In this document: positions 10,164-48,625 of the stretch, piece by piece
Layout of the letters: each line of letters opens with the position of its first letter
Position numbering within the stretch: the first letter of the stretch is position 1
Assembly (NCBI RefSeq): GCF_030684315.1
Contig: NC_081360.1
Span: forward strand, 38,175,818-38,239,817
DNA length: 64,000 nucleotides
Origin: Stegostoma tigrinum
Lineage: Eukaryota
Reading direction: 5' to 3'
Made by a program: the position numbers and the translations under genes
Notes under the pieces: generated by a model
Databases searched by the model: none
What the model was told of the DNA's origin: nothing
The model's input: only the letters and a program-made list of their open reading frames with translations

Positions 10164-10391
10164 ATAACAAAAACAGAAATTGATGGAAAAGTTCAACATG
10201 TCTGGCAGCATCTCTGAAGAGAAATCGGAGTTAATGTTTCAGGTCAAGTGATCCTTCCTCAGGATGTTCTGAGGAAGAGTCAATCAACCTGAAATGTTAA
10301 TTCTGATTTCTTTCTACAGATGCTGCCAGACATGCTGAGCCTTTCCAGCAATTTCTGTTTTACAGCATCCGCAGTTCTTTTGGTTTTTATT
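10164..10391. mobile_element. Palindromic mini-PLE family B (two inverted pLTR ends)
   Basis: Arms meet at ...cttcctcag|gatgtt|ctgaggaag...; degenerate 15-bp TSD at 10149-10163 and 10392-10406 (12/15). Confidence 0.85.
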
Positions 10392-10427
10392 TTGGAAAAT
10401 CTATTAGTATTTCAATTTTAATACTTT

Positions 10428-10765
10428 GAGCGAGGTGTCGTGGTAATGTCACTAGACTAGGAACGTAGAAGTCCAGGCCAATGTTCTGTGTAAGTGATGC
10501 AGATCTCATCAGGACAGATGGTGAAATTTGAACTCAATAGAATCTGGAATAGAGAGCTGTCCTAAAAGTGACCATGTAACTATTGTTGAAAAATCCCATT
10601 GGTTCGCTTTGGTCATTTGGGGAAGGAAATCCACTATCTTTACCAGGTCTGGCTTGCATGTAACTCCAGACCCACATGTAGTTGACACTTATCTGCACTC
10701 TGGATGATTATATATGGGTAATAAATGCTGGCCTAACCAGCAACCCTACATCATCTGAAAAAACT
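10428..10765 (+). mobile_element. tRNA-derived SINE with LINE-derived tail
   Basis: A-box-like gtggtaatgtcactagact; tail gggtaataaatgctggcctaaccagc shared with LINE ends near 6130 and 62400; sister copy at 48875-49232. Confidence 0.75.
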
Positions 10766-11436
10766 TTTAAAAATATTATTGGTTAATGATAGTTATTGCT
10801 ATATTAATATTAAATCCCAATTTGCAATGCCTCCTGATGCTGTGCTCTTTTTATGTGGCTGGTTCTTGTGCAGTAATTCCTTGAGTGTGAAACCCACCTT
10901 GCACCTCTGCTGAGGTTGTGAGATTTACAGGATTATTTTTGTGCACTACTGCAAATTTTGGAAACTCTAAACTATGTTTTTCCAGGTTTAAGAGTTTGTG
11001 ACCACTGCCATCTGCCTACGAAGTGTTGGAAATATTCTTACAGATTAGTGTTACATGTTTTTCTGCCTTTAAATGTTATAATTAGGTGTTGTATTGTAAC
11101 ATAGATGTATTTTTAAAGCAGAGAGTGCTCTCTCATGCAAAAGGTAGGATTGGCCATCATATTCATAACTATTGTGTAAATGTTGAAATGCATTATTGTT
11201 TGTTCGAAATGGAGAAAGTGCCAAAATACAATTCAACATGGAGAATAATATGCTGAGGAATTCACCTGTCATGTTTAAACCGATATGTAAATGTCCAGAG
11301 TTCACACATTTTGAAAAAAGATTTCAGTACCATTGAGAGTACAAAATAATCTAATCCTGTGCTACACTCAGTTGATTCAGATCAGAGGCAATTTGAAATT
11401 AAACACATGCGCAGCTTAAAATAGAGCCAACTGATT

Positions 11437-11712
11437 GGTGGCATGGTGGCTCAGTGGTTAGCACTGCAGCCTCACAGTGCCAGGGACCCAGGTTCAATTT
11501 CCACTTCAGGCAACTGTCTGTGTGGGTTTGCTCCAGTTTCCTCCCACAGTCCAAAGATGTGCAGGTTAGGTGGATTGGCCATGCTAAATTGCCCACAGTG
11601 TTCACGGGTGGGTGGGTTATAGGTGGATGGGTCTGGGTGGGATGCTTCAAGGGACAGTGTGGACTTGTTGGGCCAAAGGGCCTGTTGCCACACTGTAGGG
11701 AATCTAAATACT
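11437..11712 (+). mobile_element. HE1-type V-SINE
   Basis: tRNA head tggctcagtggttagcact...ggttcaatt; V-domain ggtggattggccatgctaaattgccc; CR1-like tail. Confidence 0.9.
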
Positions 11713-12031
11713 AACTGATTTATCAATTTCAATGGACTCCATTTCTTTTAAATTTCCTAGCGTTTTGGTATAATCAGGACTAGTATAGATGCTGGGCTGT
11801 GTTGTCTATGTGTTGGATGCATTGATCAGTCTATGTACTAACAACGGTTAACTTGAATGGTGTTCTCACTGAGGTAGACAAAGGAATGCAGAATTTGGTT
11901 TGCAATTCAACATGATTATATTAAAAAAGTACTCCTTATTATAAACATCAAGTGAGCATTTCCGAAGCTCCCACAATGTTTACTGTCTACCTAACTCTTT
12001 TCATCTGAGAAGGATGTGTTTGAGCTGCGCA

Positions 12032-12121
12032 GTCTCTTTCGCTCTCTCACTGTCTGTCTGTCTGTCTGTCTGTCTGTCGCTCTCTCTCTCTCTCTGTCTC
12101 TCTCTCTCTCTCTCTCTGTCT
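12032..12121 (+). repeat. Compound (TCTG)n/(TC)n microsatellite
   Basis: Directly visible. Confidence 0.95.
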
Positions 12122-12401
12122 CCAGATAGTTGGAATTCTGCTGCTGGACCAGGTTGAGTCTCCGTCAAGCCTTCACTGCATTTTCAATGTCTTCACTGAG
12201 ATAGCTGTGTGTCCTCATTCCTCCTCGCAACGGACTTTCCAGAAGGTTCTGTGACCTCTGTTCAATGGGGTTATATGTTGGTTTCAAATCATTCGGTAGA
12301 ATTGCACCAACGCCTTTCGTGGTTGCCATGCTGGGAAGTGTAAAGTGCACATACTCAGGCAGTCAAGATGCTAGAGGGTCTGATTGATACTTCTCTAGTA
12401 C

Positions 12402-12450
12402 ACGTATTTTACGTATTACATATTACAATTACGTATTACATATTACGTAT
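12402..12450 (+). repeat. Short degenerate 7-mer tandem repeat (TATTAC[AG])
   Basis: acgtattttacgtattacatattacaattacgtattacatattacgtat. Confidence 0.8.
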
Positions 12451-12614
12451 CTTTAAATTTGAAACCTGTTATTTTTATTTAGTATCTATTTGAATGGCAT
12501 TCTAACATCTACCCATATTGGATGCTGAGTGCAGTAGCAAAGAAATAAGGGACACCTCACCAGAAGAATAATGAAAATAATGATTAACATCAAAATAGAC
12601 GAGATAGGATAGAT

Positions 12615-12815
12615 CAAAAACAAAGCTGCTAGAAAAGCTCGGCCCATCTGGCAGCATCTGCGAAGGCAAAAAACAGAGTTAACATTTTGGGTCCTGTGAC
12701 CGGAAACATTAACTCTGTTTTCTCCTTCACAGATGCTGCCAGACCTGCTGAGCTTTTCCAGCAACTTTGTTCTCATTCCTGATTTACAGCATCTGCAGTT
12801 CTTTCAGTTTTTATT
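12615..12815. mobile_element. Palindromic mini-PLE family B
   Basis: Inverted arms joined inside hammerhead stem II; 14-bp TSD gagataggatagat (12601-12614) / gaggtaggatggat (12816-12829). Confidence 0.88.
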
Positions 12816-13219
12816 GAGGTAGGATGGATGTTGGCAAATCTATTGGCACTGGTTAGTGGGGGGTGGGGGCGTGGGATCTGGAGGAGTTTGGGAGAGTGAA
12901 TTTTACAGACAATAGAAGCTTTGTTGGAGAGCTGAGCCTATCTCCCAACAAATGGAGGTGAACCTCTAACCACCCTATATCTACACTCACACTCCTTCAA
13001 TGAATGCTGCACTGAAACTCAGAAGATCAAATCCTACCTACCCACATCTCCAGGAGAGAAAAATATAACAGATATGGGCAAAAGTGATGGGCCCAAGTTT
13101 CATAACTCAGGAAATCTCCCCAACCCATTGTAAAAGTCTAACACGTGGTTTCCATTGTCTTGGTGGTTACATCTCCTGGTTTGCGCTTCACTCAGTATGA
13201 GCTGCAGTTCCCTGCCGTC

Positions 13220-13910
13220 AGTCTTCACAATGGTATTGGAGCAGCCAATACAGCTGTACCTTAGATCTCTGATGAGAGATTAGAAAAGTAACAGCAGCAG
13301 CAACCCTACCAACAATCAGAGCAGTAGGTACAATACATACAGTGACACCACTTCCTTCACCTCAGCCATGTACCATTTCACAGGATAGGTGGGAAAGACA
13401 CAGAGGCACAGTCCCAAGAAGGGAACGCAGAGTGTACAGGCAGAGGACCAAATGCCTGGATATGCCTGAGCACCTCATGAGGCTCAAACATCAGGAGATG
13501 GCACAGTGATTCAGTGGTCAGCACTGCTACTTGTCAGTGCCAGGGACCCAGGTTTGATTCCAACCTCAGGCAATTGTCTGTGTGTAGTTTGCATATTCTC
13601 CTCATGTCTGTGAGGGGTTTTCTCCAGGTGTTCCAGTTTCTCCCACAGTTCACAGATGTGCAGTTAAGGTGGATTGGCCATGCTAGACTACCCATAGTGT
13701 CCAAGGATGTGCAGCCTAGGTGGATTAGCCATGGGAAAATGCAGGGTTACAGGGGTTGGGTTGGAGGGGTGGGCCTGGGTGGGATGCTCATTGAAGGGTT
13801 GGTGTGAACTTGATATCCCAATGGCCTGCTTCCACAGTATAAGGATTCAATGATCTATAGCAAGTGATTTGCAGCTTCCTGGAAGATTTACTTCCTGGTG
13901 GGCTAGATTG
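13220..13910 (+). pseudogene. PIF/Harbinger transposase N-terminal relic interrupted by a SINE
   Basis: 13429-13490 reads RVYRQRTKCLDMPEHLMRL, resuming DLQ/SFLEDLLPGG after the SINE; resembles HARBI1-like N-termini. Confidence 0.45.
13498..13855 (+). mobile_element. HE1-type V-SINE with duplicated V-domain segment
   Basis: tRNA head; gatgtgcag..aggtggatt.gccatg occurs twice (~13655 and ~13706). Confidence 0.9.
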
Positions 13911-15164
13911 GTGGATTGCTAGCTATATTTGAAGGGCTACCTTCCCACTTGTGCTCATCAGAGCTCTGTCTTTCTCAGGAATTGTGTGCTCGCATATCCT
14001 GCAAGGAGAGAAAGGGATGTGCTTTCGCTGTTAGAAATGGATTGAGTGGAAATGTGGCAATGATAATATTTATGAAGGAAATGTTTTACTTGCATGGCAG
14101 GAGAAGTTTACGAGTTAATAGCAAAGACAATTTCTTTGACAGACAGCTTCCTGACATGCTACAAGCCTCCTTGCTGCATTCAGGTCAATTACATTCAAAG
14201 TCTGCTCTGTATACAGTTCTATAGATATTCAAAATCATTCTATTTAACTGTGGTCATGGGTTCTCTACTCAGCATACTAATACATAAATACCTCAGTTGC
14301 ATCACATTAAAATACGAGGTCATTTACTATTTGTGGACCTCTTACTGTTAAAACTATGCTTAATGAATCTGCCTTCATTTTACAGTTGTTCAATTATGAA
14401 ATCTCATTTCAACAATGGAAAATACTATCTGGAAGTTAAAAAAAAGCTTGTTGTTCATGCATCAGTAATGGACATGTCATATTGAAAGACAGAGTGAAAG
14501 AATAATACTATCAGTGTGTGACTTATAAGGCTTTAGCCTAATTGCAATTTTCAGACGTTAATTTTAATGATGGATATGAAATAGTTTTAGACCTCTCTCC
14601 AACTCAAAGATTGGATTAAAACCTTGACAACGACTTACTCCAAACTACTTTTGTTTCTAAAATTCATATCAAGTTTGTTTTGTATTTGGAAGCTTTGGAT
14701 ATGAAAATACCATTGTTCCTGCTGATGGTTTTTTTTTCTCTTTGTTGTAAATGATGATAGGAAATCACATTATCCCCTTTTAAAATTATTTTCAAGTATT
14801 CTTATTGCAATTCTTCATTTTCCTGGAATTAGTTATAATATTTATTGCATTCTGGAAGAGTAATTCATGTTTTTAAAGTATGACTCCAAAACATTCAAAG
14901 AAAATAATTCACATGGACATTATTCCGTAGATACAAAAAATTAAAATTGCAAAAGTCTTAAATTTTGGAATTTGTTTAACAGTGTACTTCATATTTTATA
15001 ACTTCATTGCGGTGAAATGTTGTTGAATTCACCAGAGAAGTTGCTTGACCTGTACTAAATAATTCCAGCATTGATAGTGTGGGTTGGTAGATAAGCTTAG
15101 AGAAGATTCAACTTTTCCAAAGGTATTGAAGAGTATAAACTTAGATTTTTGTTTGTTTATAGGC

Positions 15165-18010
15165 TACCAGGGCAGAAATAGAAACTGAACTTGGAGCTCA
15201 ATATTCACATCAGAGAAACAGAAGTGGAATGCGATTTTGGGAGACTTCAACTTACTAGGAAAAGATTGGGAGCTCTGTAATGGGGCAAAGACAACACAAG
15301 TATTATTTGAGCAAGATGCTGTTTTGCTTTATAAATCAATTGGTTAAGGAATGTACACAAGAGGAAGCTGGTGCTGGGATACTATTCCAGATATGGATAA
15401 CAATCAAATGGTGTTAAACAACCTTCTGTTGAGGGTGCACCTTGAAAATGGTAATCACTATATGGTAGAGATCAAATTCAACCTTACTAAAGAGAAATTT
15501 TACAGGAATTTTCAACTTTGAAGAAATGGATTTTGAGAAAGTAAGAAGGAAACTAAATGTATAGTCATAATAACTTGATAAAAAAAAATACAAAGGAATT
15601 CAATGAGGATATTAGGAACCCATCATGGGAGATAGGGGCAAAAACATCCTTACTTCTTGTATAGATCTCGGAATCAAGAGCTGACGTGCAATATACCAGT
15701 GCTTAAGAAAGTGATCAGGTCAGCTAAAATAGAGGAACAATGGTAACATTTCAGAACTAAAAAGCATAATATGCGAGATTTTTGTGGATTTAAACAAGGA
15801 AGGAGCTGAGAATACAATTGATTCCCTGATGTAAATTATTGGAGATAACAAATATGATCATTCTTTCTGTCATGTCCATGAGTGTAGTTTTCTCAACATA
15901 GATGAATTTTCAGGGCAAGATAGGGAACTATTAAAAATAACTTACAAAAGATGATAGACTGAGGACATTGAAAGAAAACAAGGCTCCTGCAAGAACAATT
16001 AAGTAAACAGGGAAAAAATGAATGAATCTGGCTGCATCCTGTTGTGGTCTTTGAGGATTCATTGCAAATAGGCATGGAGTCTGATGAGTAGAAACAGTCA
16101 CCTTGCTAGCATAATTGAGGAAGCAACTAATAAGATTCATCACATCCTGATGGGCTTGTCAGAAAATCAGAAGAAACACAAGTTTAATTGGTTTAATAGA
16201 AAGGAATATAAAGAAATCCTTCTGAAATACAGAACACTGTACTGAATCTGATATTGTTAAAAGCTTAAACATTAGAGGGAATCTTGCAACAAGCTTTGTT
16301 GAGGTATCTAGAAATTATGAACAAAAGAGTTACATAGCTTTTTTGGAAGGTAAGTCATTGTCTGCCAAACCTGTTAAGAAGAGATCAGTGTATGTTGCGC
16401 ATTTAGATTGTATTAATACAGTGGTGCACAGAAGCTTACAGGATTTGGAGGAATTGGAAGAATGTTGCAGAAGTGATTAACTGGAAGATTAACAAAGCCA
16501 GATGAACACAGATGAGAAGTGCAAGGATATGTGTTAATTTAGAAATAGGTGACCTGCAAAGCACCTTGGGGTCAATATACGGGCCATTATTGTTTGATCC
16601 AGATCAGAGCATTGTAGATGAGGCAAAAATCGACCCACTAAAATTTATGATACCAATCCAGAGAGCAGGATGGAGGAAATGAAGATGTTGGGAGTGTAAA
16701 AATAACGATAAGAAATTATATTTGTAAATCAACTTTAAAAATAATGAGCTGTCCTGAGACACTTCACAAGAAGATGAGAAGATATTACTTCAGATGACCA
16801 AAAACATAGTTAAAGCCTAAGTGCTTAAAGAAGTGTCGTAAAGGGAACAAGTGAAGTATGGAATCATAAAGGTATAGGAAGTGAATTCCAGATCTTGGAG
16901 CTTAACTGAAACCATGGCTACCAGTAGTGGAGCAATCATGATTGTGAATGCAATTCAGAATTAGAGAAACACAGATAACTTGGACAGTGGTAGGATTCAA
17001 AGAGATTACAGAGAGCAGGAAGGATAAAACACAGTCTCAATTTGAATACAAGAATGAGAATTTTCCAATCAAGTCAATGTATATCAGCAAGATTGGGATG
17101 ATAGGTGAATGGGACTTGTTACAAGTTAAGATATTGGCTGCTGTGTAGTGGTGTGATCTCAGTGTATAGAGGATGGAATGTGGGAGTCCAGTCACAACCA
17201 CATTGGAGTAGTCAAGCCTTGAGGTATTGAAGACATGGATTTGGATTTCATCAGCAAATAAACTGAGTCAGGAATGAAATCAAACAATGTTAAAGAGGTG
17301 AAAATAGGCAGTCTTAGAGGCATGAATATGAGGTTGGACATTTTTCTCAGAATCACTTGGGACACTGGAGTCATGAGTAACAGGGCTTCATCTCAGACTC
17401 TTACTATGGAAAAAGATGGAGTCAGTAGTTAAGAAATACAGTTTGGAGCAGGGAATAAAAACACCGGTTTCATTCTTAAAATGGCAGAAATCTCTGCTCA
17501 TCCAGTGTTGGATATCAATTAAGCAACCTGATAACTGAGCAACACCGGAACAGATTAAATATGTGGTATTGAGGTAGAGCTGGGTGTCATCAGTGGAAAC
17601 TGATGCTGCACCTTCAAACTATGTTGCAAAGGAGCATTGTATAAGATGAGAAATAGGAGGGATCAAGGATTGGTCCTTAGCAGACAGTAGAAGTATTGAG
17701 GGAATAGGAAGAGAAGCCATTAAAAGTGATTCTCTAGTTATGATTAGATCAATAAAAGTGGAAATATACGAGAGCAGTCCTATGAAGCTGAGAGAGATTT
17801 AGATCATTTGAGAAGTCAGATTGACAAGTAACTGACTGTTTAATATGAATAACGAAAAAGTAATGAGACCGGAAGAGGGAGCAATTTGTGAAAATTAGGA
17901 AATAAACACATTAAGATGCAGTACAGGAAAACAGAGAACTCACAGAAACCAAGTAATTTCTTATGATGTGCAGCTAGAATTAATGATAATTGGCTAAAAA
18001 CTATCAGAAC
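15165..18010 (+). mobile_element. Ancient, heavily decayed CR1 LINE (endonuclease to RT), split by an L2
   Basis: ggagacttcaactta (GDFNL) ~15240; tcattgtctgccaaacctg ~16356; aaatttatgatacc (KF.DDT) ~16641; resumes agagatttagatcattt (RDLDHL) ~17793. Confidence 0.6.
16735..17785 (-). mobile_element. L2 LINE 3' fragment
   Basis: Reverse complement of 17571-17595 encodes TDDTQLYL, the L2 YADDTQLY motif. Confidence 0.7.
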
Positions 18011-18689
18011 TTGGGTGGAGGAGTTAGAATTTGTGACCTGTTCATGGCAGTCCTGGTGGTAGGCAACACATTTCAGTTATTGTCTCATAGAACAGAGTTC
18101 TCCTGTGCTGCTGCCTGTGCATTGAGCAAGGATCGGATAAATGTTGAGTGATATTCCATGGTGTAGCCAGCCTTCTGCTCCTAAAGGCAGTTTGTCCATG
18201 GGAAAGGGAAGCTGCACTGAACGCCAGGATACCTTTGCTGATTACTATTATTGTGATTCTAAAGAAGGAAATTTGAACACCAGAGAGAGGTTCCCAGTTC
18301 TCAGCTGGTGCAAAAGGTCAGTGATTTTTCAGGGAGGCAGGAACTGCTCCACAGATCCCAGATCTCTGAACGGATCAGAAGCATGTGATCAACACTATCG
18401 ATTACAGTATCTTGACCCACTGATCTGCAGTTGTGCTATATGTTGAAAGTCAGTGAATGCATTCACGTGACACATCTTACCAACAAAAATGCCAGGTTTT
18501 CTCCCTATCATTCAGCCTGCAACAATCTCCAGAACTTGGGACTTGTACTTACAATCCAGATCCTGTGTATTACCCAAACAGTATTTGTTTCTGCAGGCTC
18601 ACACCTATCTCTTGCAATTCCATATAATTTAACTATTCAGTGAAGGCAGAAACATTCCCTAAATAGCATACCAAACATCTATTAGTGCT

Positions 18690-18832
18690 CTTTAAGACAT
18701 TGATGCATTTTTAGATAGTAAAGGCATGAAAGAGAATGGAGAAAAAGCAGGAGTATGGTATTGAGTGTCAGCCATGACTACATTGAATGGCAGTTGAAAC
18801 TTAAAGAGTTGAACAGTTACTTCTGCTCCTAC
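18690..18832 (+). mobile_element. CR1 3' end fragment
   Basis: tcagccatgactacattgaatggcag...acttctgctcctac; similar to ~40070-40200 and ~53290-53450. Confidence 0.75.
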
Positions 18833-19116
18833 AGACAATGCTAACATTGCTCTTGCAGGACAAGCAGGCATAAAATAAAATGGAGAAAAGCAGAATTGGC
18901 AGGGGTCAAGGACATATGCATATCCTGTATCCAAGAGGGCAAATACCTTTCCACTGGTCCTGTTGAATATCCAGGCATAAGTGGGCTGATCAGGCGGGAC
19001 GATATTCATAGACCAGCTCACAGCAAAGTGAAGGCAGGGACGTGATCTTCTACAGCCATTTCAGATGAGGACCTTAATGTAAGCAGGAAAGTGTTGGTGA
19101 TCATGAACATTAATAT

Positions 19117-20595
19117 TAGAACATGATAAATAGGAACAGGAGGAGTGCATTCAGTCCATTGATACTACTCTGTCAACCAACAGGATCATGGCTGATCTGA
19201 CACTACTCATGTACACTTTCCTGTCCTTTCCCCATAACCCCTGTTTCCCCAAGTGATCAAGAATCTACCTACCTCAACCTTAAGTATACACAAGAACCCT
19301 ACACCCACAGTTCTCTGTGGCAAGGAGTTTCAAAGACTTCACAGCCTTCTGAGAGATGAAATTCCTCCTCATCTCAGTCTTAAATTGTTGTACCTTTACT
19401 CTGAGCTTATCCCTTCTGATCTTAGACTTTTCATGAGGGGAAATATCTTCTCAGCAGTTACCCTATCAAGCCCCTTAAGAATGAGATCACCTTTCATTCT
19501 TCTAAATTCTAGTGAGTAGAGTCCCAACCTGTTTATATTTTGCTCATAAGCTCCATATAAGGCATCATCCTAGTGAACCTTCACTGAACTGCCTCTAATG
19601 AAATAATATATTTCTTTAAATAAGAGGATCAAAACTATTCACATAACTCCAGTGTGGTCCTACTAAGACCTTGCAAAACTGCAGTAAGACTTCCCTATCT
19701 TACACTCCAACTTCCTTGAAATAAGGGCCAACATTCCATTAGCCTGCTTGATTATCTGCTGCACCTATATACTAACTTTCTGTGTTTTATGCACCGTTTT
19801 CCCCAGGTTCCATTGTTCTGCATCTTTCTGCAGCTTTTCTCCATTCAAATAATACTCTGATCTTCTGTTCTCCCTTGCAAAATGAATAACTTGACATTTT
19901 CCCATATTATATGTCATTTTTCAACTTGTTGCCCCACTTAGTTAACACATCAATATATCTCTGTAAATGGCTTGTATCTCCTTCACAACTTGCCTTTTCA
20001 TCTATCTTTGTGTTGTCTTCATATCCGGCTACAGTGCTTCCTTCCTCTAAGTCATTAATATATTGTGAATAGTAGAAGTCTCAACACTGATCTCTGTGGA
20101 ACCCCACTTGTTATGGGTTGCCAACCTACAGAAAAAAAACCTTATTCCCACTCACTTTTTCCTGTCACTACCACTTCTCAATCCATGCCAATACACTACC
20201 CACAGCACAATAGGCCCTTATGTTATGACTTAATCTTTTCTGAGGTGCCTTGCTGAATGCCTTTTGGAAGCCTAAATGCAACACGTCCACTGATTCGTCT
20301 CTATCAGCTCTGGTTGAGGATTACTCCAAAAATGTTAATAAGTTAGTCAGATGATTTTCCCGCATACTGACACTGCTTGGTTAGATTATGAGTTTCCAAA
20401 TGTACTGCTACTATCTCCCTTAATTATTGATTGTAACAGTTTTCCAACAATAGATGTTAGGCTAATCAGCTGCTTATTGCTTCCCTTCCTTGTTGAAAAA
20501 GGGTGTCGCATTGACAGTTTTCCAGTCCTCCTGTAGTTCTCTAGAATACAAGGATTTTTGGAAAATTACAACCAATGCATCCACTATCTTTGGGT
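19117..20595 (-). mobile_element. CR1 LINE, decayed, 5'-truncated
   Basis: CR1 3' terminus at 19117; homology to the plus-strand CR1 at 39095-40215; RT-region remnants to ~20590. Confidence 0.85.
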
Positions 20596-28327: not shown

Positions 28328-28407
28328 ATCTAGGCCAGAAACAACAGCTTTTGTGCTCCTAAGATGCTGCTTGGCCTGCTGTGTTCATCCAGCCCCACAC
28401 TTTGTTA
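28328..28407 (+). mobile_element. PLE family A pLTR fragment (tail-less end)
   Basis: tctaggccagaaacaacagcttttgtgctcctaagatgctgcttggcc...cacactttgtta. Confidence 0.85.
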
Positions 28408-31140: not shown

Positions 31141-32166
31141 ATATAGTGCTGCTAGAGGTTCAAAGGGCTCAGGAGGGTGGGGAAGGTGTATAGCATTCCA
31201 CTTTAACCTGCCATTCCCCACCCTAAACCTTTCCAGTAGCCTCTACATAGAGCAGTAACCTTTATAGTTCCAGTCTTTCATCTCTCTCTAACAATTACAA
31301 TCAACCCCATCTTCATACCATCTCACACCCATGTTTCACAGTCATCTTCCATGACTTTTGTTCTTCCCTACTCTCCACAGAATCTATTCAGCGTACTCAC
31401 AACTCTGAGATTTCTCTCCTTGCAAGAAGTGACGGTGCAGAGCTCCATGGAGAGGAACTGGTTCCTCCCTGGTTTTAGCACCTTGACAAGAATTGGCAAA
31501 ACATGCTTTCCTGGTCCATTGGGAAGATGGCTGCAGCTACCAGCCATGACTTGCCAAACCTAGGAGGCACTGGTGTACACATATGTGAAGGGGAGTCATC
31601 CTCTGGTTATAATCTCTGTGTGGGAAATCTCACTTCTTCTGAGCTGGATACCTGTACCACACCTTTTCCTATAGAACATCATCTGCCTGAGGAAAAGGCT
31701 GTGGCAATACTTATGGGATTGTTGGTGCTGCTGCTGTTGCTGTTCCTCTTATTCTTAATCAGAATCCAAAGTAGAGCTGTGTAATCTATTCGCACACTAT
31801 AGCAAAGGTTGAATGCAGGAAATGTCAGATCAGGTCAAAGTCCAAAGTAATTGAAAAAGAAAAAAAAAACTGTGAAGCAGTGAAAACACACTCAGAGGTA
31901 TTGCTGTATCTAACAGCTTCTCCGTATACAGGGATGAAGTTATTCAGTTTCACTCTTTGAAGGCTTCCCAACTTGTCAGTTTCTTTGGAGAAGTATTCTC
32001 CATCCTACATGCACCTGGTTGATCCAGGCAATTTCCACACACCTCAGAAAATCTCAGTGCTAACTGTTAAGGTCAGAAATTGGAATTGAATCCTGAGAAT
32101 CAGTTCCAAATGAATTCCCATTCACGTGGAAATCTGCTTAAATTAAAGCCAGAAATGGGCAGGTTC

Positions 32167-32365
32167 TTAGGTAATGGGAACTGCAGATGCTGGAGAATCC
32201 GAGATAACAAAATGTGGACCTGGATGAACACAGCAGGCCAAGCAGCATCTTAGAAGCACAAAAGCTGACGTTTCGGGCCTAGACCCTTCATCAGAAAATG
32301 TCAGCTTTTGTGCTCCTGAGATGCTGCTTGGTCTCCTGTGGTCATCCAGCTCCACTCTTTGTTAT
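32167..32365. mobile_element. Palindromic mini-PLE family A
   Basis: Tailed minus arm plus tail-less plus arm; perfect 13-bp TSD aatgggcaggttc at 32154-32166 and 32366-32378. Confidence 0.92.
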
Positions 32366-32724
32366 AATGGGCAGGTTCATGCTGGGATTAACACAATGCC
32401 TGCTCTTACTCACTCACTTCCTCAAGTGGTTCATTGAGTTCAATTGGAATAATGTATGTAGACAAAAGAGAAAGAAGACTTCACCATCTTCCTGGACAGA
32501 TGTATTTAAATGTGAGAGAATATGGACCAAGATATTCCAATGGGCAGACAGTTGTTTCTGCAACATGGAGTGGGTTGTTTGTCAGGAGTATGTAGAATCC
32601 AAGATACAGCTGACTCTGATGAGAGACTCCCATACGTGTGGAGTCACCCGAATGAAACATAGAGAGGGCACACGTGCACTTAAACTAATATTTACTCAGA
32701 AAAGGTTACAGGATTGAAAACCAG

Positions 32725-35445: not shown

Positions 35446-35447
<2 letters not shown>

Positions 35448-38089: not shown

Positions 38090-38600
38090 ATACTAGCCCT
38101 GGAGCGTGTCCAGCGGAGATTCACACGGATGATCCCTGGAATGGTAGATTTAACGTATGATGAATGGCTAAGGATCCTGGGATTGTACTCATTAGAGTTT
38201 AGAAGGTTGAGGGGAGATCTAATAGAAACTTACAAGATAATGTATGGTTTAGAAGGGGTGGGCGCTAGGAAGTTGTTTCCGTTAGGCGGGGAGACAAGGA
38301 CGCGTGGGCACAGCCTTAAAATTAGAGGGGGTAAATTTAAAACTGAAATGAGATGACATTTCTTCAGCCAGAGAGTGGTGGGCTTGTGGAATTCATTGCC
38401 ACGGAGTGCAGTGGAGGCCGGGACATTGGATGCTTTCAAGGCAGAGATCGACAAATTCTTGATCTCAGAAGGAATCAAGGGCTAATGGGAGAGTGCAGGG
38501 AAGTGGAGTTGAAATGCCCATCAGCCGTGATTTAAACGGCAGAGTGAACTTGATGGGCCGAATGGCCTTACTTCCACTCCTATGTCTTATGGTCTTATGG
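38090..38600 (+). mobile_element. Relatively young CR1 3' fragment
   Basis: ALERVQRRFTRMIPGM...LGLYSLEFRRLRGDLIETYKI; CpGs retained; ends in tcttatgg repeats. Confidence 0.95.
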
Positions 38601-39094
38601 AGAAGCAAATATCATTTAACAGCCTCATGACAGTTTTTCATCAATTTTCGCATCAAGGACAAATCCAACACTGGTGACATCACTGTTCACAAATGCCATC
38701 TCCTAAATAGAGTGTGGATAGCTTATTTAATCTTCTTTATGTACCATTGAACCATGTAAGCATGGATACATATGACAACAGCATATTTATGACAAAATTA
38801 TGTTTGATTAATTAGATAAATCTATCACAACTTTTTCAGTCGATCGATGATCTACTCTGGAATGAGCAGTTCAAATAGCAGTGGATACATAGTCCAGAAG
38901 TTTATTCAAGAAGCATTTACAACAAAACTTCCACTGAATCCATAACATCCTACAGAACAAGTTGACTGAAGCACAAAAGAGTATTCAACCAGACGAAACT
39001 GAACTTTCATTTGAATAATATACTGAATACAAGAACTTCCATGCAACTGATTTAGATACTAATGATGAAGAAGAAACTGCTGTAACCATTTAAA

Positions 39095-40215
39095 ATATAT
39101 CTTAATGACTTGAAAGAAAAGAGTGAACAAGAAGGTGTTCGTTTTGGAAGGGAGAACAAAGGTACAGAATATTATTTAACTGGAGAAAAATGACAGAAAG
39201 CTATAGTACAAAGGGGCTTGGGGATACATGAGCATGAAACACAAAAAGTAGGTAATCAGGAAGGCTAATGAAATATTGGCCCTTATTTCAAAGGCATTGG
39301 AGTGTGTTAGTAGGGAAGTCTTAATGTAACTGTATAGGGTGCTGGTGAGACCACATCCAGAATATTGCGAATAGTTGGGTCCTATCACCTAGGAAAGATA
39401 GAATTTTGTTGAAGATGGTTCAGAGAAGGTTCGCTATGATGATCTCTGGACTGAAGAGATTGTCTTCTGAGCAAAGGTTAACAGATTGGGATTCTACTTA
39501 CTGGAGTTTAAAAGAATGAGAGGTGATCTCATTGAAAATTGTAGGATTCTCAAGGAAATTGACAGGGTAACCGGGAGAATCTAGAACCAGAAAACATTGA
39601 AAACTTATAGCAAAGTGAGATAAGCAGAAGGCTCATCAACGACTGTTGAACTTTTAACTTATTCTTTTGATTTCTTGTTTCAAATATGAAAGACCTTAAT
39701 GTAAGCTATTACCTATTTCTTTATTTTGCTTTCTTTAATTTTATGAGGTAATGGTTAACTTTTTAATACTTGTTTCTCTTATTACTTTTTACCTAAGCTT
39801 TTTTTGTACCAAAGTACCTTGGTACCTAAGATTATGCCAGTGTGGTGACATTATACACTTTTCACTGTACTCCTATACTTCTGTGCTTGAGTACACATTA
39901 CAATAAAATATAAAACTAAATCTGAGGGCATAGTCTCAGGATAAAGGGATGCCAATTTAAGACTAAGATGAGGAGACATTTCTTCTCTGAAAATTGAGAG
40001 TCACCGGAAGACTTTAACACAGAGAGCTGTGGGGGCAGATTCCTTATGTATATCTAAGGATGAGATAGATAGATTTCTTAGTTGGGGAATTAAGCATTAT
40101 GGGAAAAGGACAGGAAAGTAGACAAGAGGAATGTCAGATCAGCCATTATCATATTGAATGGCAGAGCAGGCTTGAGAGGCTGAATGACCTACTTTTGTCC
40201 AAATTTCTTATAGTC
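39095..40215 (+). mobile_element. CR1 3' portion, interrupted at ~39595-39923
   Basis: ctggtgagaccacatccagaatattg (LVRPHPEYC); aagaatgagaggtgatctcattgaa; CR1 3' UTR. Confidence 0.85.
39595..39923 (+). mobile_element. 3' UTR of a different LINE (Rex1/Babar-like) nested in the CR1
   Basis: acttttcactgtactc...gagtacacattacaataaaa terminus; CR1 sequence resumes at gggcatagtctcagg. Confidence 0.5.
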
Positions 40216-41589
40216 TTACAATCTAAACAACCTAACCACATGCACATTTCTGCAATCATGTCAATGCAAAGAATACCCATTCAGGATGTGTGGTCAGGCT
40301 ATTACATTTCTTAAATCTCTAACAGAAACCAGCAGAGAAAAAGAAAGATTAGCAAATTTACATCATTATGTTTATACTTTGTCACAGACTTAAATACCTG
40401 CCCGTGACCACAGACAAATTATGCCAAAGACTTGGGGACAGGTGGGAGACATAAAGAAAAAAAAATGTAGTAAATATTGTGACAAATAGATGCAATAGAA
40501 ATAATCTGGGTAGTGCATGTGAGAATGTGTGCAAGTATTAAATAATGTTTATGACAGAGGAAGAATAAGATTGTGGAGAGCTGTTGTGTCAAGGTTTTAA
40601 CATGTTTTAACAACATAACAAGGATGTCTTGGAACTGGCATGAATGTAATAATGTAGGAGGAGTTAATTAGATTTGAAGAGAACAGCGCACATAAGTAAC
40701 TGTCTCATAACAGTTTAACATTTAGATCAGAATCTGGTAGATCTCAGATTGCCATGTATTGTACATGGTGTTAACATGCAATTAAGCAAGACATCTGTAA
40801 AAGCCTAAGCTTGACAACAGTGCTTGTCCTTGCCTTCTCATTGATCAATCTGTCTTGAAACCAAACTCTTTAATGTAAAAAGATCTATGATAACAAGTCT
40901 CCACCACAGAGGATACAAGTGATGTCTCAGAAGCAGCAATAAATCAGAAAATGGGAAGCAGACAGGAATTCAGGAAAATCACAATTTCCTGAGAAGTGAT
41001 ATTGAGTAAACTGTTGGAGCTGCAGACTGACAAGCGCTCTGCGCCTGACGGACTTTATTCTATGGTCCTAGAGGAAATAGTCAGTGAGATAGTTAATTCA
41101 TTGATTTTAATTTCCAAACCCTCCTCGATTTGGTGAAGGGCTGATTAGATTAAATGATAGTGAATGTACTTCCCTTATTCAGCATGGGAAGGAGACAGAA
41201 GGCAAGAAACTGCAAGCCTGTGAAGTTTAATTCCTACAAAAGGAAAATATTGGAAGCTATTATTGAAGAACTTATAGAAGAGCTTTTGATTAAGTTCAAG
41301 GTAATCAGGCTGAGTTCTGTGAAATGGAGATTAAGTTTGACCAAAGTATCATTCTTTGAGAAGGTAATTGTGCTGTAGATAAAGGGGAGCCAGTGGGTGT
41401 ACTATACTTGGAGTTCCAAAAGCATTTGATAAGTTGTCATGTCAAAGGGTTATTGTTCTAAATAGAAAATTTGTTAGTGAACATGAAGCAGTGAGCAGGT
41501 TTAAATCTCTATCAGATTGTCAAGATACAATGCATGGTATCCCATAGGGATCAGGGCCGGATCTCAACTATTTATAATTTATCTAAATA

Positions 41590-42245
41590 TAGTCAGACAG
41601 AATGGTTAAGAAGCCATTTAACATGCTTGCCTACATTGTTCAGACCTTTAAATATAGGAGTTGGGACACCTTTTTCAGTTTGTACAGGCCCTTGGTGAGA
41701 CGTCTTCTGGGACACTTTGTATTGTTCTGATTGCCTTGCTGCAGGAAGGATATTATTGAATTGGAGAGGATTCAGAAAATATTTACCAGGATGTTTCTGG
41801 GAATGGAGGGTTTGAGTTATAAAAACATGCTGAATAGGCTAGGAGTTTTTCAATGGAATGTGGGAGGATGAGGCGTGACCTTATAGATGTTTATTAAATA
41901 ATGAAGGACATAGATAATGGAATAGCAAGGGTCTTTTCCCTAAGGTGGGGAAGTTCAAAACTAAGGGGCATATGTTTAAGGTGAGAGGAGAAAATTTTAA
42001 AAATGATATGAGGCAACTTTTTACCACAGAGAGTGGTTCGTGTGTGGAATGAATTGCCAAAAGAAGTGGTGGATACAGGTACAGTTACAATATTTAAAAG
42101 ACATTTGGATAAGTACATGAACAGGGAAGATCTGGAGGGAATATGGGTCAAATGCAGGCAAGTGGTGCTAGTTTAGTTTGGAAACATTATCAGCGTGTAC
42201 TAGTTGGACTGAAAGGTCTGTTTCTGTGCTGCATCACTCTATGAT
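41590..42245 (+). mobile_element. Younger CR1 3' fragment nested in the old CR1
   Basis: Has its own 3' terminus (ctgtgctgcatcactctatga), after which the host resumes gatttggatgaaggg (DLDEG). Confidence 0.85.
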
Positions 42246-42717
42246 TTGGATGAAGGGACAGAAGACATGATTGCCAGATTTGCTGATGATACAAAGTTGG
42301 GTAAGAAATTAAATTGTGAAGAGAAAACAAGCAAAGTTTAAAAAGTATGTTGAAAAGAAAGTGAGTGGACAAAGATGTGATGGAAACAATGTAATGTGGG
42401 AAAATGTGAACTTGTCCATTTTGACAGGAAGAAAAGAAAAAGCATGCTATCTAAATGGTGACATACGACAGAGCTCTGAAATGCAGTGTGATCTGGATGT
42501 CATGCATGAATTGCAAAAGTATTTAAGAAAGCTAATATTATCATTTATCATGAGGAGAATGGAATATGGAAGTGGTAAGGTTATATTTTAGTTATACAGT
42601 GCACTGGTGAGACTGCGTCAGGAGTACTGAGTGCAGTATTGGGCACTTTATTCAAGGAAAGGTGTAACTGTATCGGAGGCAGTTCAGGGAAAGGTTACTA
42701 AACTAATACCTGATGGA

Positions 42718-42847
42718 GCTCTCTGATGAAGGGTCTAGGCCCAAAACGTCAGCTTTTGTGCTCCTGAGGTGCTGCTGGGCCTGCTGTGTTCATCCAGCCT
42801 CACATTTTATTATCTTGGATTCTCCAGCATCTGCAGTTCCCATTATC
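42718..42847 (+). mobile_element. Short PLE family A insertion (hammerhead core plus tail)
   Basis: Starts 5 nt before CTGATGA; perfect 10-bp TSD acctgatgga at 42708-42717 and 42848-42857. Confidence 0.92.
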
Positions 42848-43384
42848 ACCTGATGGACAGCATGAGTTATGAAGAAAACTTGGATAGGGTAGACTTACAA
42901 CTGGTGGGCTTTAGAAGAGTAAGAGGCAATTTGATTGAATCATATAAAGTCTTGAAGGGTTTTGCCAGGGTAGATGCAGAAAGGATTTTTCCCCTTATGG
43001 GATAATCTAGAACTGGGGATCAGAGGTGGTCAATGTAAAACAGAGTTTTAGCAATTTAGAAGGTGGTGTTCAGAAGGTGGTGAGTGGTTGGAACTCTATC
43101 CCTGAAAGTAAGCTGAGACTTTGAATATTTTTATTGCAGATGTAAGTAGATTCTGGTTAAGTAAGGAGTTGAAAAGCTATCAGTGTGGATGGGAATTTGT
43201 ATTTGAGGTTACAATTAAATCAGCCACGACTTTATTGAATGGCAGAGTGGGGGGCTGAATAGCCTACTCTATCTCCTACTTCACAAGTTCATGTATCTGG
43301 TTTGGAAGTAAAGTCTTGTCACTTTCAAAGGTTGAAGAAATGATTACATTGATTTGTGTCAAAGGGGAGACAAGCAATGTAAAT

Positions 43385-43497
43385 CCAGACCCAAAACGTC
43401 AGCCTTCCTGCTCCTCTGATGCTGCTTGGCCTGCTGTGTTTATCTAGCTCTACACCTTGTTCTCTCAGATTCGCCAGCATCTGCAGTTCCTATTATC
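43385..43497 (+). mobile_element. Short PLE family A-like pLTR end with tail
   Basis: cccaaaacgtcagccttcctgctcctctgatgctgc...gcagttcctattatc. Confidence 0.85.
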
Positions 43498-46400
43498 TTT
43501 TATACATAAATGTTCCCTTATTACAGTGAGAAACTCTGAGAGTTCTCATAACTTTTGTTATACCAACCTCACTCAAAGACACCAGAATAAATATTGTATT
43601 CTGTATTTTACCAGGAGAATGTGACAAGTTTAAGCACAAATCTTTTACTGCATGACTGTACATCGACAAATTAACACACATGTTGAAATATGCAACAGTG
43701 TAGTAATGTTGAAGGTTTAAGATACGTTCACATTTATTGTCTACACTTCTGAAAATACGCCATTGAAGTGTGCTGTGCTTCTCATTTATAATAAAAGGGA
43801 TGGTTGTTGTCCCTTGTGAATTTCATTATGTACTATGTCCAATTAAACATACTATATATATAAGTATTAGAGGGAGTCTAGAAAGAAAATAAAAGAGTCC
43901 ATTGTTTCAACTGCATTTGTGTTTCTACTTAAAATCTATTTCTTCTTAACTTCATACCTTCTTATTCTGGTTCCTTCAAAAGTAACAATCCATCTACCTC
44001 GTCTCATTTTTAGGCCACTATTGACTGTTGCTTTTATGTTTCCTTTTATGTTTAATTCTGACAACTAGATTCAGATGATTGATATCTCCGAAATGTTCTC
44101 ATGTATGGCTTCACAATCATGTCTGTTGTAAAAACAAACCACTTCCACTTTCAGGAGTATATCCCTGTACACACTGCATGGATATAATCACCGTTATCAG
44201 AATAGACAGGAAATGTAATGGTCAGTCAAGATAAGATGATGAATTGCTTGATATTCCCAGTCACCTAAGATGAACAGCCTTGATAAAATGATAGATTTTC
44301 ATTGTGCCAGCTTGAAATAGACAGTGTTGTGACTGTTCAAAAACTGGCTCATTTTGCTTTATTACGTCATCAATCCCTGTAAGCTTTCATTTTAAAGGCA
44401 AAATTTTTATTTTGTTTTAAGATATAACTATCAAACATGCCTCAATCCCAAAATCTGCTGACAAACATAAAACTATCAAAAACTGAAAAGAAGGTCTTCT
44501 CTTTTCCATTCCAGGTTGCATTAAGCCACAAATTCAATAATCAACCTCACATTCAAGGAAGAGATCTACAAGGACCCATCTTTTAAATTCTCATTCTAGC
44601 TTGTGAAAACATATCCTAAGGCAAGTGATTTGTTGCAGTGATGGGTTATTGCTCAAATCCACTTTAAAACTGAGCTTTCTGCTGCTTCTGTTATTCAAAT
44701 GTGCGAGATGTTGGCAATAAACTGCTGCACACAGATCAAGAATTCATGGAGTTTATCAAACTATGTCACACAAATCAACCTCCTAACACTTAGTGACGTT
44801 GGAGCAGCAATGTACCAAAGCAACTTCCTTCAGTACTGAAATGTAAGGGGTTGGATCCAGAAAATTGTGATTGCATGGGCAGAATGGATATCCTATCCAG
44901 AGCAGAAAGATACAATATTGACCGCTTGTCAATGCACTGCCTGCTTAATATAGTAACCCTCATCTCACACATTTATTTGAATAAAACGTTCCTGCAGGTT
45001 ATTTGTAAACAAAATTGGTAAGGTTGTATGTTAGGAGCCATTTGTTAATTGCATCCTCATAGATTTTTTTTTGACAGTTCAACTGTTAAAAAAATTACTA
45101 ATAAATCTAAGAGTTCAGCTGCTCAGCAATGCTACTGTGAATCCCAGTCGCAGTTTTATGCCATGTTAGTGGTTTTGAAAGTAATTTGGCAAGCGACCAC
45201 TGTCATCAATATGACTTGCAATCAGTTTAATGCAACTGAATTGAAACAGCCTATCATTTCCTTTGTCACACTCTTGTATTTGCATTAATTATAGAAATTG
45301 GAAAAATACACCTGGACATTCTGAGACATTTTCTCATATCAAAGTTTCAGAGACATTGAATAGAGACAGCTCATTATGGAAGCTGGCTCTGTAATAAGTG
45401 TATTGCTTTAGAATTACAACATCAAGTGTTTGAGGAGAATGATTGGAGCTGTTTCCTCGCCCCTGGATGCTGCCAAACCTGGAGAGTATTTCTAGCCATT
45501 GTGCTTTTGTTTCAGATGTCCCAAATCTACAATATTTTGCACTTGAACAGGGCCTGAGTTCTGTTTATATGGCTAATGGCACTAGCACAGAATAGGCAAC
45601 TAGGAGCCAGGAGTTTAGGCAGATATTATTGTTGCTGGGTTTATTCTGTGCCACTCACCAATCATCTTGCCCACTTATAATTAACTTATCCAAAAGAATA
45701 AGTGCCTTATTTTAAGAAAAAAACACAAATGCAAATTGTTTAATTTGCACGCTCCTATTCTACAATGCACCAATAGAAACTAGGTGCCAAGAATTCACAA
45801 CTAGGAAGTCAGGGCAGACACCTAGCAACTCTAGCTCAGCAGTTGCTTCTCTGGGCTGTTAACTCAGATACGTGGCATCAGCATCAGGGCACTCGAACAG
45901 CATAGTGACCACCTGCACCTGACGTCATTGGATCTTGGTATGCCACACATAGTGACTTCTCTGCACCATTTTGGCACATATCTGATCCACTTACAGTACT
46001 CTGCATTTGATTGCCACAATTTGGACTTCCCTAGCACATCTCATTGCATTGCTGCTGCAAAGATACTTGGTATGCAGGGACAGGCACCCAAGCATTGGAT
46101 TGGACCAGGCTGCATCACAGCACTGTCTGATTGCTCCCTTTGCTCACTGCATCTTTGCTTTGCTGTGCTTTGCCTTGTCCTCCTTTAGCTGGCTATGCCA
46201 TTCCTTTCACTACAGACATAAGTGTTGGCTGTAACCAGTCAAGGGGGTGGGCATGGTGCTGCACATCACCAGGTTACATTGGTATTACAGAAGTACCGTC
46301 TGTTAGAACTTCCAGCGTTTGTCCAAGTACACAGTGGAGTTAGAAATATGGTTCCAGGGCCAGGGATGCCCATCTATTTCGAGATATCCCAGCTGCAGAG

Positions 46401-47359
46401 AGTTCCCTCACTACAGCAAGTAGTGGAATTGGACTTGAACCATCAGAGAACAGGGGGAGGTTAGGTAGTTAATGAAGCATGTTTGGGAGAACTCACTGGG
46501 CTTCACGAAACATAATGAAAATGATATGAAACGAAAATATCACAAGATTCAGTCTGCTGCATCTATACTCAGGCACATGTATATGCAATATCCAATTAAA
46601 ACAGCCTTTGTAAAATGTGTTTTACAGAAAAAGAAACGTGCGCCGTCTTCTCTGGTTCAAGGTAACCAACAGAGAACCCACAAAGCACAGGAACACCACT
46701 GCCAGTATTAAGGACAATAATCACTGCCGAAAACCTTCATGCCTCCAATGATTGCACTCTACCTCCAGATTAAGGCCAGTCAATTCAATTAATGAAATGC
46801 TCAACACAGCAAACAGTTCCATCATTTTCCTGGGGATAAGTGACACAGATAGACAAGGAAACAGAGATAAAGACATTTTGTTTTCTTATGGTGGGTTTGT
46901 CCAAAGTCCAGCCCATCAAAATGGCCACCTGTGCCCCTGTAGGCATTGTCATCAACTACAATAGGAACAGAACAGGAAAATATATTACAGTGCAGCTTAT
47001 AAAATATCTGTTCGTACAGATTTTGCATTGCTAATGAGATACATATTGGAGCTGTACTGGAAGGTAGAGAAGAAGCTGAATGAACAGAGGAAAGATGATA
47101 CTATCTTGCTGCTTCAGGCGACTGTCAGCGTCACTCTGGGTACTCTCCCTTTGTTCTCACACCCAGGATATTAAACATGATGCGTTTGGACTGATTCAAT
47201 GGTTTAAATTTTGAGGAACTACTTTTTAATTTGCTTATTGTAGTCCCACTATATGCCGAGAGATAGTAAAATACTGGGAGTTGGAAGTGAAACAAAACTT
47301 AAACTTAAATTTCTGCCTGGCAATCTATGCATGTGTAAATGAATATGAACTTAAAAGAA

Positions 47360-47565
47360 GTGTGGAGCTGGATAAACACAGCAAGCGAAGCAGCTTCTTA
47401 GGAGCACTAAAGCTGACGTTTCGGGCCTAGAACCTTCATTGGAGAAGCTGATGAAGGCCCGAAACGTCAGCTTTTGTGCTCCTAAGATGCTGCTCAGCCT
47501 GCTGAGTTCATCCAGCTCCACACTTTGTTATCTCAGATTCTCCAGCATCTGCAGTTCCCATTATC
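47360..47565. mobile_element. Palindromic mini-PLE family A
   Basis: Tail-less minus arm plus tailed plus arm; 16-bp TSD tatga[a/g]cttaaaagaa at 47344-47359 and 47566-47581. Confidence 0.92.
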
Positions 47566-48411
47566 TATGAGCTTAAAAGAAAACAGTTTTGGCTGTAGTG
47601 ATGCTAATGAAGTGTATCCTGCTGTGGAACATGAAAGTATGTGAAACTGTTTTGTGACACCTCAGCATGCATCTTAAATTGTGTTGCTAAGCAACATAAG
47701 GACTAAGCAATTCTGGTATGCATTATAGATGATTATACATACCTATCTACTTGACATTGTACAATGCTGATTGAGCTTCAGTTCAGCAGATGTACCCTGA
47801 CTGCTACTTTTCCTTAACTGTTTTCACCTCCATTTGTTGTTGTTTTGGTTTTGCTAACTATACATTCTTCTTTAGTTGCATACTTTGCCCAAGAACCATC
47901 ACCAAACTGAGGTGTTCTTGTATAGCAAGAAATGTTGAGCTCTCAAAGTAATAGCAGTGGACTATTAGAGCTGTAGCTGCACCGTTTATGTTAATGTACA
48001 AGTAATCTGTACCATTCCACATCATATTGTATGAACTGTCAGTGCTGTTGACAAATATCTGGCTAATTTGTTATTATCATCCACTTGTAAGGTAATAATG
48101 CTCAAAGTCTGCTTGATTTAGTGTAGTGGAGGAAAATCACTGGCAGTCTAACAAGAAGAGTTTGTTGTATTAATCAAGATGTAGTTTATTGCATGAGAGC
48201 AATTATGAACAAGGTACATTGATGTGATAGATGTTGTTAGAGAGAATGTAAGGAAGATCAAAGCTCTTCTTCCTCAGGCCCATAAGTTATCCACAACATT
48301 AACCCTTTCAGGTGTTTCACCTGCTTATGCAACAGTTTTTTAAAAATATTTTCAAAATATGACAGCACAGAAACAGGTTTTTCAGCCCAAAGGCATCTTG
48401 GTAGCACTGTG

Positions 48412-48625
48412 AAAATCAAAAGAACCAGACGTTGTAAATCAGGAACAAAAACAAAGTTTTTGACCCTTCGTCAGAACTGCAGCATTATGACTCACAGCCA
48501 GAAGGTGTGAAGACTGGGCAGAAAGTTCTGAGTCAGGGTCATGGACCTGAAAAGTTAAATCTGTTTTCTCCTTTACAGATCCTGCCAGACCTGCTGAGCT
48601 TTTCCAGCAACTTTGTTTTTATTCA
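48412..48625. mobile_element. Palindromic mini-PLE family B with a ~45-bp unrelated spacer
   Basis: Tailed minus arm with internal deletion, spacer ~48479-48523, tail-less plus arm; degenerate TSD tggtagcactgtg / tggtagtgttgtg (10/13). Confidence 0.8.

What the first reader, a model, noticed from the sequence alone, without database searches (positions are those of the whole stretch)
10164..48625. Recurrent ~200-bp palindromic, hammerhead-derived mini-elements with long TSDs (two independent PLE families)
Seen: five insertions (10164-10391, 12615-12815, 32167-32365, 47360-47565, 48412-48625) consist only of two inverted pLTR ends that meet at or inside the hammerhead core, each bounded by a 13-16 bp TSD (one perfect, others 77-94% identical). 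Known: PLEs carry minimal hammerheads in their pLTRs and often insert with an inverted 5' pLTR. Inference: these are either a non-autonomous, MITE-looking but RNA-mobilised class (retrozyme-like), or stereotyped abortive insertions in which reverse transcription stalls or the template is cleaved at the ribozyme. The junctions differ between copies, which favours repeated de novo formation.
Basis: partly seen in the sequence, partly recalled or inferred. Interest (0 to 1): 0.72.

Follow-up and report, generated by a model that had tools for sequence, protein, structure and literature searches.

The report
Dead-end palindromic Penelope insertions
These ~200-base mirror-image inserts are real and very common leftovers of a known jumping gene (a Penelope-like element), each likely built anew when two copying enzymes started on opposite DNA strands and ran off what is likely the start of the element's RNA, just in front of its small ribozyme, so they likely record how this poorly understood class integrates rather than forming a self-spreading element.

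Summary
All five palindromes are present. They belong to a genome-wide class: 57 family-B and 14 family-A cases in an unbiased 1.25 Mb, roughly 150,000 B-type per genome. TSDs are 10-18 bp, and S4's empty site in a related species matches its TSD. All 53 classifiable B minis pair a long arm (+97) with a short arm (+64). These are the known PLE 'tail' positions, shown in vitro to be RT start sites. Arms stop mainly at -22..-36, with a mode 4 nt before CUGA. They do not stop mainly at the predicted hammerhead cut, which shows only a weak secondary signal. Junctions are nearly all unique (S3's recurs 10 times), and minis occur in every subfamily that also has long copies. The retrozyme/MITE reading therefore fails and de novo formation holds. 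Best model: priming on both target strands near the RNA 5' end, run-off at that end (probably the transcription start), then end-joining. The layout is published (inverted pLTR, one-sided tail). I did not find the quantified boundary or the strict arm pairing in the papers searched. This scan noted the same class many times on other DNA.

The parts
10149..10163 (+). S1 left TSD candidate (12/15 to 10392-10406; weak alone)
10164..10391 (.). S1, family A mini: short arm -[-29,+67] 10166-10262, 3-nt gap, long arm +[-32,+105] 10266-10391; a related organism's contig enters it from the right flank, so it is probably older than the split
12601..12829 (.). S2, family A mini with 14-bp TSD (12/14): short arm -[-20,+68], long arm +[-21,+105], joined by a 13-nt overlap in hammerhead helix II; filled in the related organism
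32154..32378 (.). S3, family B mini with perfect 13-bp TSD: long arm -[-28,+97] to 32295, short arm +[-6,+63] 32296-32365
   Evidence: junction 32-mer found 10 times genome-wide
47344..47581 (.). S4, family B mini with 16-bp TSD (15/16): short arm 47360-47447, long arm ending 47565; empty site in a related organism
48396..48638 (.). S5, family A mini (TSD candidate 12/16): internally deleted long arm, ~45-nt filler, short arm +[-33,+71] 48524-48627
49839..49885 (-). nearby stretch 87% identical to the S5 junction filler (likely donor, or another copy of the same repeat)
42719..42847 (+). one-armed family B mini, -31 to +97, with ~10-bp TSD; same 5' boundary as the palindromes
28329..28407 (+). 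one-armed family B mini, -16 to +62, 15-bp TSD read by eye
1..1253 (.). long inverted family B insertion (left part runs off the window) with GIY-YIG-type coding remnant and 3' pLTR; hammerhead at 1124
54967..58074 (.). long inverted family A insertion: long-tailed inverted arm, RT and endonuclease remnants, short-tailed 3' pLTR; same long/short layout as the minis
63491..64000 (-). family B arm ending at +64/66, runs off the window

Best explanation
The palindromes are the shortest insertions of endonuclease-bearing Penelope-like retrotransposons, likely dead ends formed anew at each site when both nicked target strands likely prime reverse transcription at the two fixed 'tail' sites near the 5' end of what is likely one RNA, and the cDNAs likely run off that end, 4 nt before the hammerhead's CUGA. 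Shown: arm ends at +64/+97 (B) and +67/+102-105 (A); strict long+short pairing; a sharp ceiling near -31; TSDs of 10-18 bp; unique junctions; intact ORF-bearing relatives. From a paper: a PLE protein cuts and extends both strands and starts at two sites 30-40 nt apart (PMC11167929). Inferred: the staggered nicks give the TSD; the ceiling is an RNA 5' end, most likely the pLTR transcription start; both arms come from one template; the two same-sense cDNAs are joined by end-joining, which trims one arm and sometimes adds filler. Also inferred: long inverted insertions are the same reaction on templates that continue upstream (3' pLTR, tandem or circular RNA), and 1-2% of arms may come from ribozyme-cut RNA.
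For: 3' ends peak at +64 (68) and +97 (103) among 272 B hits. 53 of 53 classifiable B minis are long+short, P=1e-16 against independence; 8 of 9 in A; 14 of 14 long inverted insertions likewise. Stop rate per 100 nt: 0.9 at +5..-3, 4.0 at -22..-26, 6.1 at -27..-36, 0.2 at -37..-60 (255 arms; 10.2 then 0 among the 119 arms >=88% identical). A shows 10.1 at -27..-36. The mode is exactly 4 templated nt before CUGA in 24 of 53 B arms and 41 of 110 cores. Among 27 loci with the ORF start, 7 begin at -24..-29, and 7 of 10 independent internal jumps leave from -23..-34. The two arms agree in class: 50 short/short, 14 long/long, 2 mixed against 23 expected. They share subfamily alleles: 14.6% discordant against 51% shuffled, background 7%. 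3 of 12 long pairs end within 10 nt of each other, permutation P=0.0006. The short arm reaches further 5' in 22 of 53, the long arm in 15, and 16 are within 5 nt, which single-cDNA fold-back cannot give. An uninterrupted 1085-codon ORF with RT exists (L196).
Against: No RNA 5' end was measured. The extra-G (cap) test was inconclusive: 8 of 21 at the modal end against 14 of 41 elsewhere. In family A the 5' end spreads over 2-6 nt rather than one base. In D. virilis the start site is 46 nt before an intron whose end maps to helix I (PMC2377424, PMC4209133), so a start at the hammerhead is not general. Shared alleles show the same subfamily, not the same molecule. Two-armed long insertions are undercounted in 10-kb windows. 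The in vitro data come from a Poseidon element, not this clade. Only 18 of 66 one-armed short copies have a TSD score >=9.
Confidence: 0.68

Rival explanations
1. Same twin-priming reaction, but the -31 boundary is not a transcription start. It is an end made by 5'-3' trimming up to the protein-bound or hairpin-folded hammerhead, or a polymerase roadblock at the C-rich tract upstream.
For: The hammerhead region is predicted to fold as a -27..+2 hairpin, leaving a 4-nt overhang. The cap-G test was inconclusive. The upstream sequence is C-rich in both families.
Against: About half of the arms that reach -22 pass with a very low stop rate afterwards, and the two arms pass or stop together; this fits two template classes better than a leaky block. 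The boundary sits in pyrimidine/initiator-like sequence (motifs recalled, not tested).
Confidence: 0.14
2. Hammerhead self-cleavage of the template sets the junctions.
For: Perfectly symmetric junctions at the cut-site palindrome occur 709 times, against 23, 50, 144 and 272 at four other 4-nt palindromes. 20 of the 709 were examined: several subfamilies, varied ends and TSDs. Non-templated starts number 1045 at +1 against 413 at +3. 2 of 10 jumps leave from +1.
Against: No stop-rate peak at +5..-3. 1045 is about the rough average per position (~980, from only 10 hits over 26 positions). A pause at the hairpin base (+3) gives the same symmetric junction. In vitro, ribozyme mutants insert normally (PMC11167929). 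This can explain at most a few percent of arms.
Confidence: 0.06
3. One cDNA is made and folds back on itself (self-priming, as proposed for PLE inverted junctions in PMC3846280), and the short end is set by endonuclease resolution.
For: Symmetric junctions at internal palindromes exist; 16 of 53 arm pairs end within 5 nt; the arms share alleles.
Against: Fold-back requires the tail-bearing arm to be the deeper one, yet the short arm is deeper in 22 of 53. Some long arms cover only +52..+97, +56..+97 or +67..+97 while the short arm reaches about -30.
Confidence: 0.08
4. A self-propagating non-autonomous element (retrozyme-like or MITE-like) copied as a whole palindrome.
For: High copy number, stereotyped size, and some exact junctions recur (10 for S3, 709 for the +1 fold).
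Against: No arm-end pair occurs more than 3 times in 57 minis. No allele is found in >=3 of 58 minis and absent from 79 long arms. All four subfamilies have both minis and long copies. The ends are asymmetric, TSD length varies, and there is no tandem repeat.
Confidence: 0.04

Closest known systems
EN+ PLE insertions with inverted 5'-truncated pLTR and one-sided 30-40 bp tail (PMC8557442, passages; PMC3846280, passages; D. virilis Penelope, PMC2377424, passages)
   Same: Head-to-head inverted pLTR, tail at only one end, TSD, hammerhead in the pLTR, partial tandems.
   Different: Here the unit is reduced to two ~95/128-nt arms at ~45 per Mb, with a sharp 5' ceiling, strict long+short pairing and 10-18 bp TSDs (8-10 bp in the rotifer examples).
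Poseidon element of Anolis, PAc (PMC11167929, parts 1-2 of 4 read, supplements not seen)
   Same: Two internal RT start sites 30-40 nt apart downstream of the hammerhead; both strands cut and extended; predicted dimer; ribozyme cut not required.
   Different: In vitro, another clade (ours has the Cys linker), and the ORF starts inside the hammerhead there but at +139 here. The parts read describe no pairing of start sites or palindromic products.
Non-LTR retrozymes (10.64898/2026.07.22.740005, part 1 of 5 and passages) and min-HHRs (PMC4209133, parts 1-2 of 4)
   Same: PLE-derived, non-coding, minimal type I hammerhead. PMC4209133 notes close opposite-strand min-HHR pairs in Schistosoma.
   Different: Retrozymes are head-to-tail tandems; the minis are head-to-head and would lock the motif in a hairpin. 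True tandem arrays exist separately in this genome (L116, L132).
LINE-1 twin priming (recalled, no paper read)
   Same: Both target strands prime; inversion with microhomology or filler at the junction; variable TSD.
   Different: L1's second primer anneals at variable internal sites and copies a non-overlapping upstream part; here both primings use fixed sites and the arms overlap.

Membership tests
EN+ Penelope-like element insertion | Parent ORF with RT and C-terminal GIY-YIG endonuclease | tested here: met
   L196: 1085-codon ORF; Pfam RVT_1 E=1.8e-5, below the curated cut-off. GIY-YIG-type motif read by eye, no Pfam hit at 1e-3.
EN+ Penelope-like element insertion | pLTRs direct or inverted, tail at one end | tested here: met
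EN+ Penelope-like element insertion | Minimal hammerhead in the pLTR | tested here: met
   Core motifs with helix II and palindromic helix III. No Rfam hammerhead hit at E<=5. Activity untested.
EN+ Penelope-like element insertion | Target site duplication | tested here: met
   46 of 57 against 0 of 150; S4 empty site
Neptune clade | CX2-5CxxC linker between RT and EN | tested here: met
   C-x4-C-x2-C before the EN motif in L196; definition from PMC8557442; Nematis shares a similar motif
Neptune clade | RT phylogeny with reference Neptune elements | not tested
   no reference set fetched
Non-LTR retrozyme | Head-to-tail tandem units, each with a hammerhead | tested here: not met
   the minis are head-to-head
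Non-LTR retrozyme | Self-cleaved circular RNA | not testable with these tools
   needs RNA data or a bench assay
MITE | Symmetric TIRs and fixed short TSD | tested here: not met
   arms differ by ~33-40 nt in 53 of 53; TSD 10-18 bp
Propagating non-autonomous family | Shared junction and private alleles | tested here: not met

The most novel reading that the evidence does not exclude
The minis are a fossil record of the PLE integration complex. A dimer on one RNA primes both target strands, one subunit at each tail site. The RNA begins 4 nt before the hammerhead, so the first product is a strong-stop-like cDNA that either jumps to another template end (building pLTR tandems) or fails and leaves a palindrome. 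A small share of templates is ribozyme-cut in vivo.
Probability: 0.35. Interest if true: 0.72.

Novelty: new variant of a known kind. Interest (0 to 1): 0.47.

Why it matters
How PLEs integrate, why they carry a one-sided tail and inverted pLTRs, and what the hammerhead does are open questions (PMC8557442, PMC11167929). This class ties the two in vitro RT start sites to the two target strands (53 of 53) and gives a precise prediction for the RNA 5' end. An intact ORF (L196) makes this testable in vitro. In practice, roughly 150,000 hairpin-like inserts could be mis-annotated as MITEs or miRNA precursors (S1 gave a sub-threshold miRNA match).

Tried and rejected
Rfam: no hammerhead family; only sub-threshold hairpin matches. 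RNA test of the 5' end: no RNA holder listed. Empty sites: S1 and S2 appear filled in organism B; for S3 a contig leaves the window at 32153 and runs on 512 nt, but the second piece was not listed, so it is not shown; S5 not covered. Cap-G test inconclusive. Breakpoint piles at about -307 and -651 are artefacts of a subfamily indel and of reference ends and were dropped. A Spearman value on sorted arm pairs is biased by construction and is not used. The 30 of 30 long+short result and the junctions come from hits ranked by likeness to the query, so they are not counted as unbiased. Splice-acceptor origin of the -31 boundary rejected for B: no AG there and no shared upstream exon. A per-arm independent strand-transfer model is disfavoured by 2 mixed pairs against 23 expected. 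One search returned an unrelated paper. 15 of 140 requested sample stretches did not exist.

Full report
Observation. The five stretches are each two 3' ends of a Penelope-like element (PLE) joined head to head. Positions below are relative to the predicted hammerhead cut (+1 = first base after GUC/GUU; CUGA starts at -27 in family B and -29 in family A). S3 and S4 (B) have TSDs of 13/13 and 15/16. S1, S2 and S5 (A) have weaker ones (12/15, 12/14, 12/16). A related organism lacks S4 and exactly one TSD copy, while S1 and S2 appear to be present in it. S5 holds a ~45-nt filler that matches inverted DNA 1.3 kb away.

Parent elements. The window holds long inverted insertions of both families (1-1253; 54967-58074). 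In the genome (G000, 3.2 Gb), L196 has an inverted arm, a 5' pLTR, an uninterrupted 1085-codon ORF and a 3' pLTR; L200 and L202 have ORFs of 1074 and 1081 codons. Pfam gives RVT_1 below its cut-off. The endonuclease motif and a C-x4-C-x2-C linker were read by eye and point to the Neptune type as defined in PMC8557442. A and B are homologous.

Unbiased sample. I took 125 stretches of 10 kb at round coordinates on large contigs and mapped them with real copies as references. 3' ends pile at +64 and +97 in B, and near +67 and +102-105 in A. There are 57 two-armed B minis (45.6 per Mb, about 146,000 if extrapolated) and 14 A minis. 46 of 57 B minis have a TSD score >=9 (10-18 bp), against 0 of 150 shuffled pairs; for the older A minis it is 4 of 14 against 1 of 150. 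All 53 classifiable B minis pair a long with a short arm (4 could not be classed); so do 8 of 9 in A and 14 of 14 long inverted insertions.

Where arms stop. Over 255 B arms the stop rate per 100 nt is about 0.9 from +20 to -21, including the cut site. It is 4.0 at -22..-26, 6.1 at -27..-36 and 0.2 beyond. Family A peaks in the same bin. The modal B end is 4 templated bases before CUGA (24 of 53; 41 of 110); A spreads over 2-6. Of 27 loci carrying the ORF start, 7 begin at -24..-29, 8 sit in tandem behind an upstream pLTR, and the rest start elsewhere. In 10 independent cases a segment jumps into the ORF interior: 7 leave from -23..-34, 2 from +1 and 1 from +13 (L191-L193 counted once). This is what a physical RNA 5' end predicts. 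Whether that end is a transcription start is inferred; the cap-G test was inconclusive.

One template, two primers. The arms of one insertion agree in class (50 short/short, 14 long/long, 2 mixed against 23 expected) and in subfamily alleles (14.6% discordant against 51% shuffled). 3 of 12 long pairs end within 10 nt of each other. The short arm is the deeper one in 22 of 53, which rules out pure fold-back from the tail-bearing cDNA. PMC11167929 (parts 1-2 of 4; supplements not seen) reports that a PLE protein cuts and extends both strands, starts at two sites that bound the tail, is predicted to be a dimer, and does not need ribozyme cleavage.

Not a propagating element. No arm-end pair occurs more than 3 times in 57 minis, and S3's junction occurs 10 times genome-wide. 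Minis and long copies occur in all four B subfamilies, in somewhat different proportions (P=0.02). No allele is private to minis. True tandem hammerhead arrays exist separately and show the same long/short ends with TSDs.

A minor cleavage signal. Perfect folds at the cut-site palindrome number 709, against 23, 50, 144 and 272 at four control palindromes. The first 20 listed span several subfamilies with different ends and TSDs. Non-templated starts number 1045 at +1 and 413 at +3, but a rough baseline is about 980 per position, and a pause at a predicted hairpin base would mimic the fold. This is suggestive and covers at most a few percent of arms.

Comparison. The inverted 5' copy and the one-sided tail are described (PMC8557442, PMC3846280, passages). 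Close opposite-strand min-HHR pairs were noted in PMC4209133 (parts 1-2 of 4). Retrozymes are tandem (10.64898/2026.07.22.740005, part 1 and passages). Nine searches of the paper library returned no description of a high-copy palindromic mini class, of the -31 ceiling, or of strict start-site pairing; subscription papers, Repbase entries and supplements were not seen. Earlier notes of this scan report the same class and the RNA-start idea on other DNA; I had reached that reading before opening them, and they are not independent support.

Verdict. A real, abundant, extreme form of a known PLE insertion layout, formed de novo. Its value is mechanistic. Novelty: new variant of a known kind. Interest 0.47.

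Noticed in passing
L116:6768-8434 and L132:4977-6180: Tandem hammerhead-bearing PLE deletion derivatives (about 440- and 300-bp units, retrozyme-like), themselves inverted, with long/short ends and 12-15 bp TSDs.
   Followed up: partly
L196:2303-5560 (also L200, L202): Uninterrupted PLE ORFs of about 1080 codons flanked by pLTRs; family B may be recently active.
   Followed up: partly
L171, L172, L176, L180, L184, L186-L188, L191-L194: Partial tandems in which a short 5' segment jumps into the ORF N-terminal region.
   Followed up: yes
window about 1100-1101 (B) and about 57960 (A): Splice-acceptor-like sequence (pyrimidine tract plus CAG) 15-25 nt upstream of the hammerhead in both families, read by eye; D. 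virilis Penelope has an intron ending at helix I.
   Followed up: no
window 48478-48523 and 49839-49885: The S5 junction filler resembles inverted neighbouring DNA, suggesting templated end-joining.
   Followed up: partly
window 11429-11712: A 284-bp stretch (another repeat) is absent from the related organism's contigs: a second empty site.
   Followed up: no
G000:C1:149364382-149364497: Three matches starting at the predicted cut site, spaced 46 bp apart: a short tandem that begins at +1.
   Followed up: no
window 57125-57495: A non-PLE repeat appears to be inserted in the endonuclease region of the long family A copy (read by eye).
   Followed up: no
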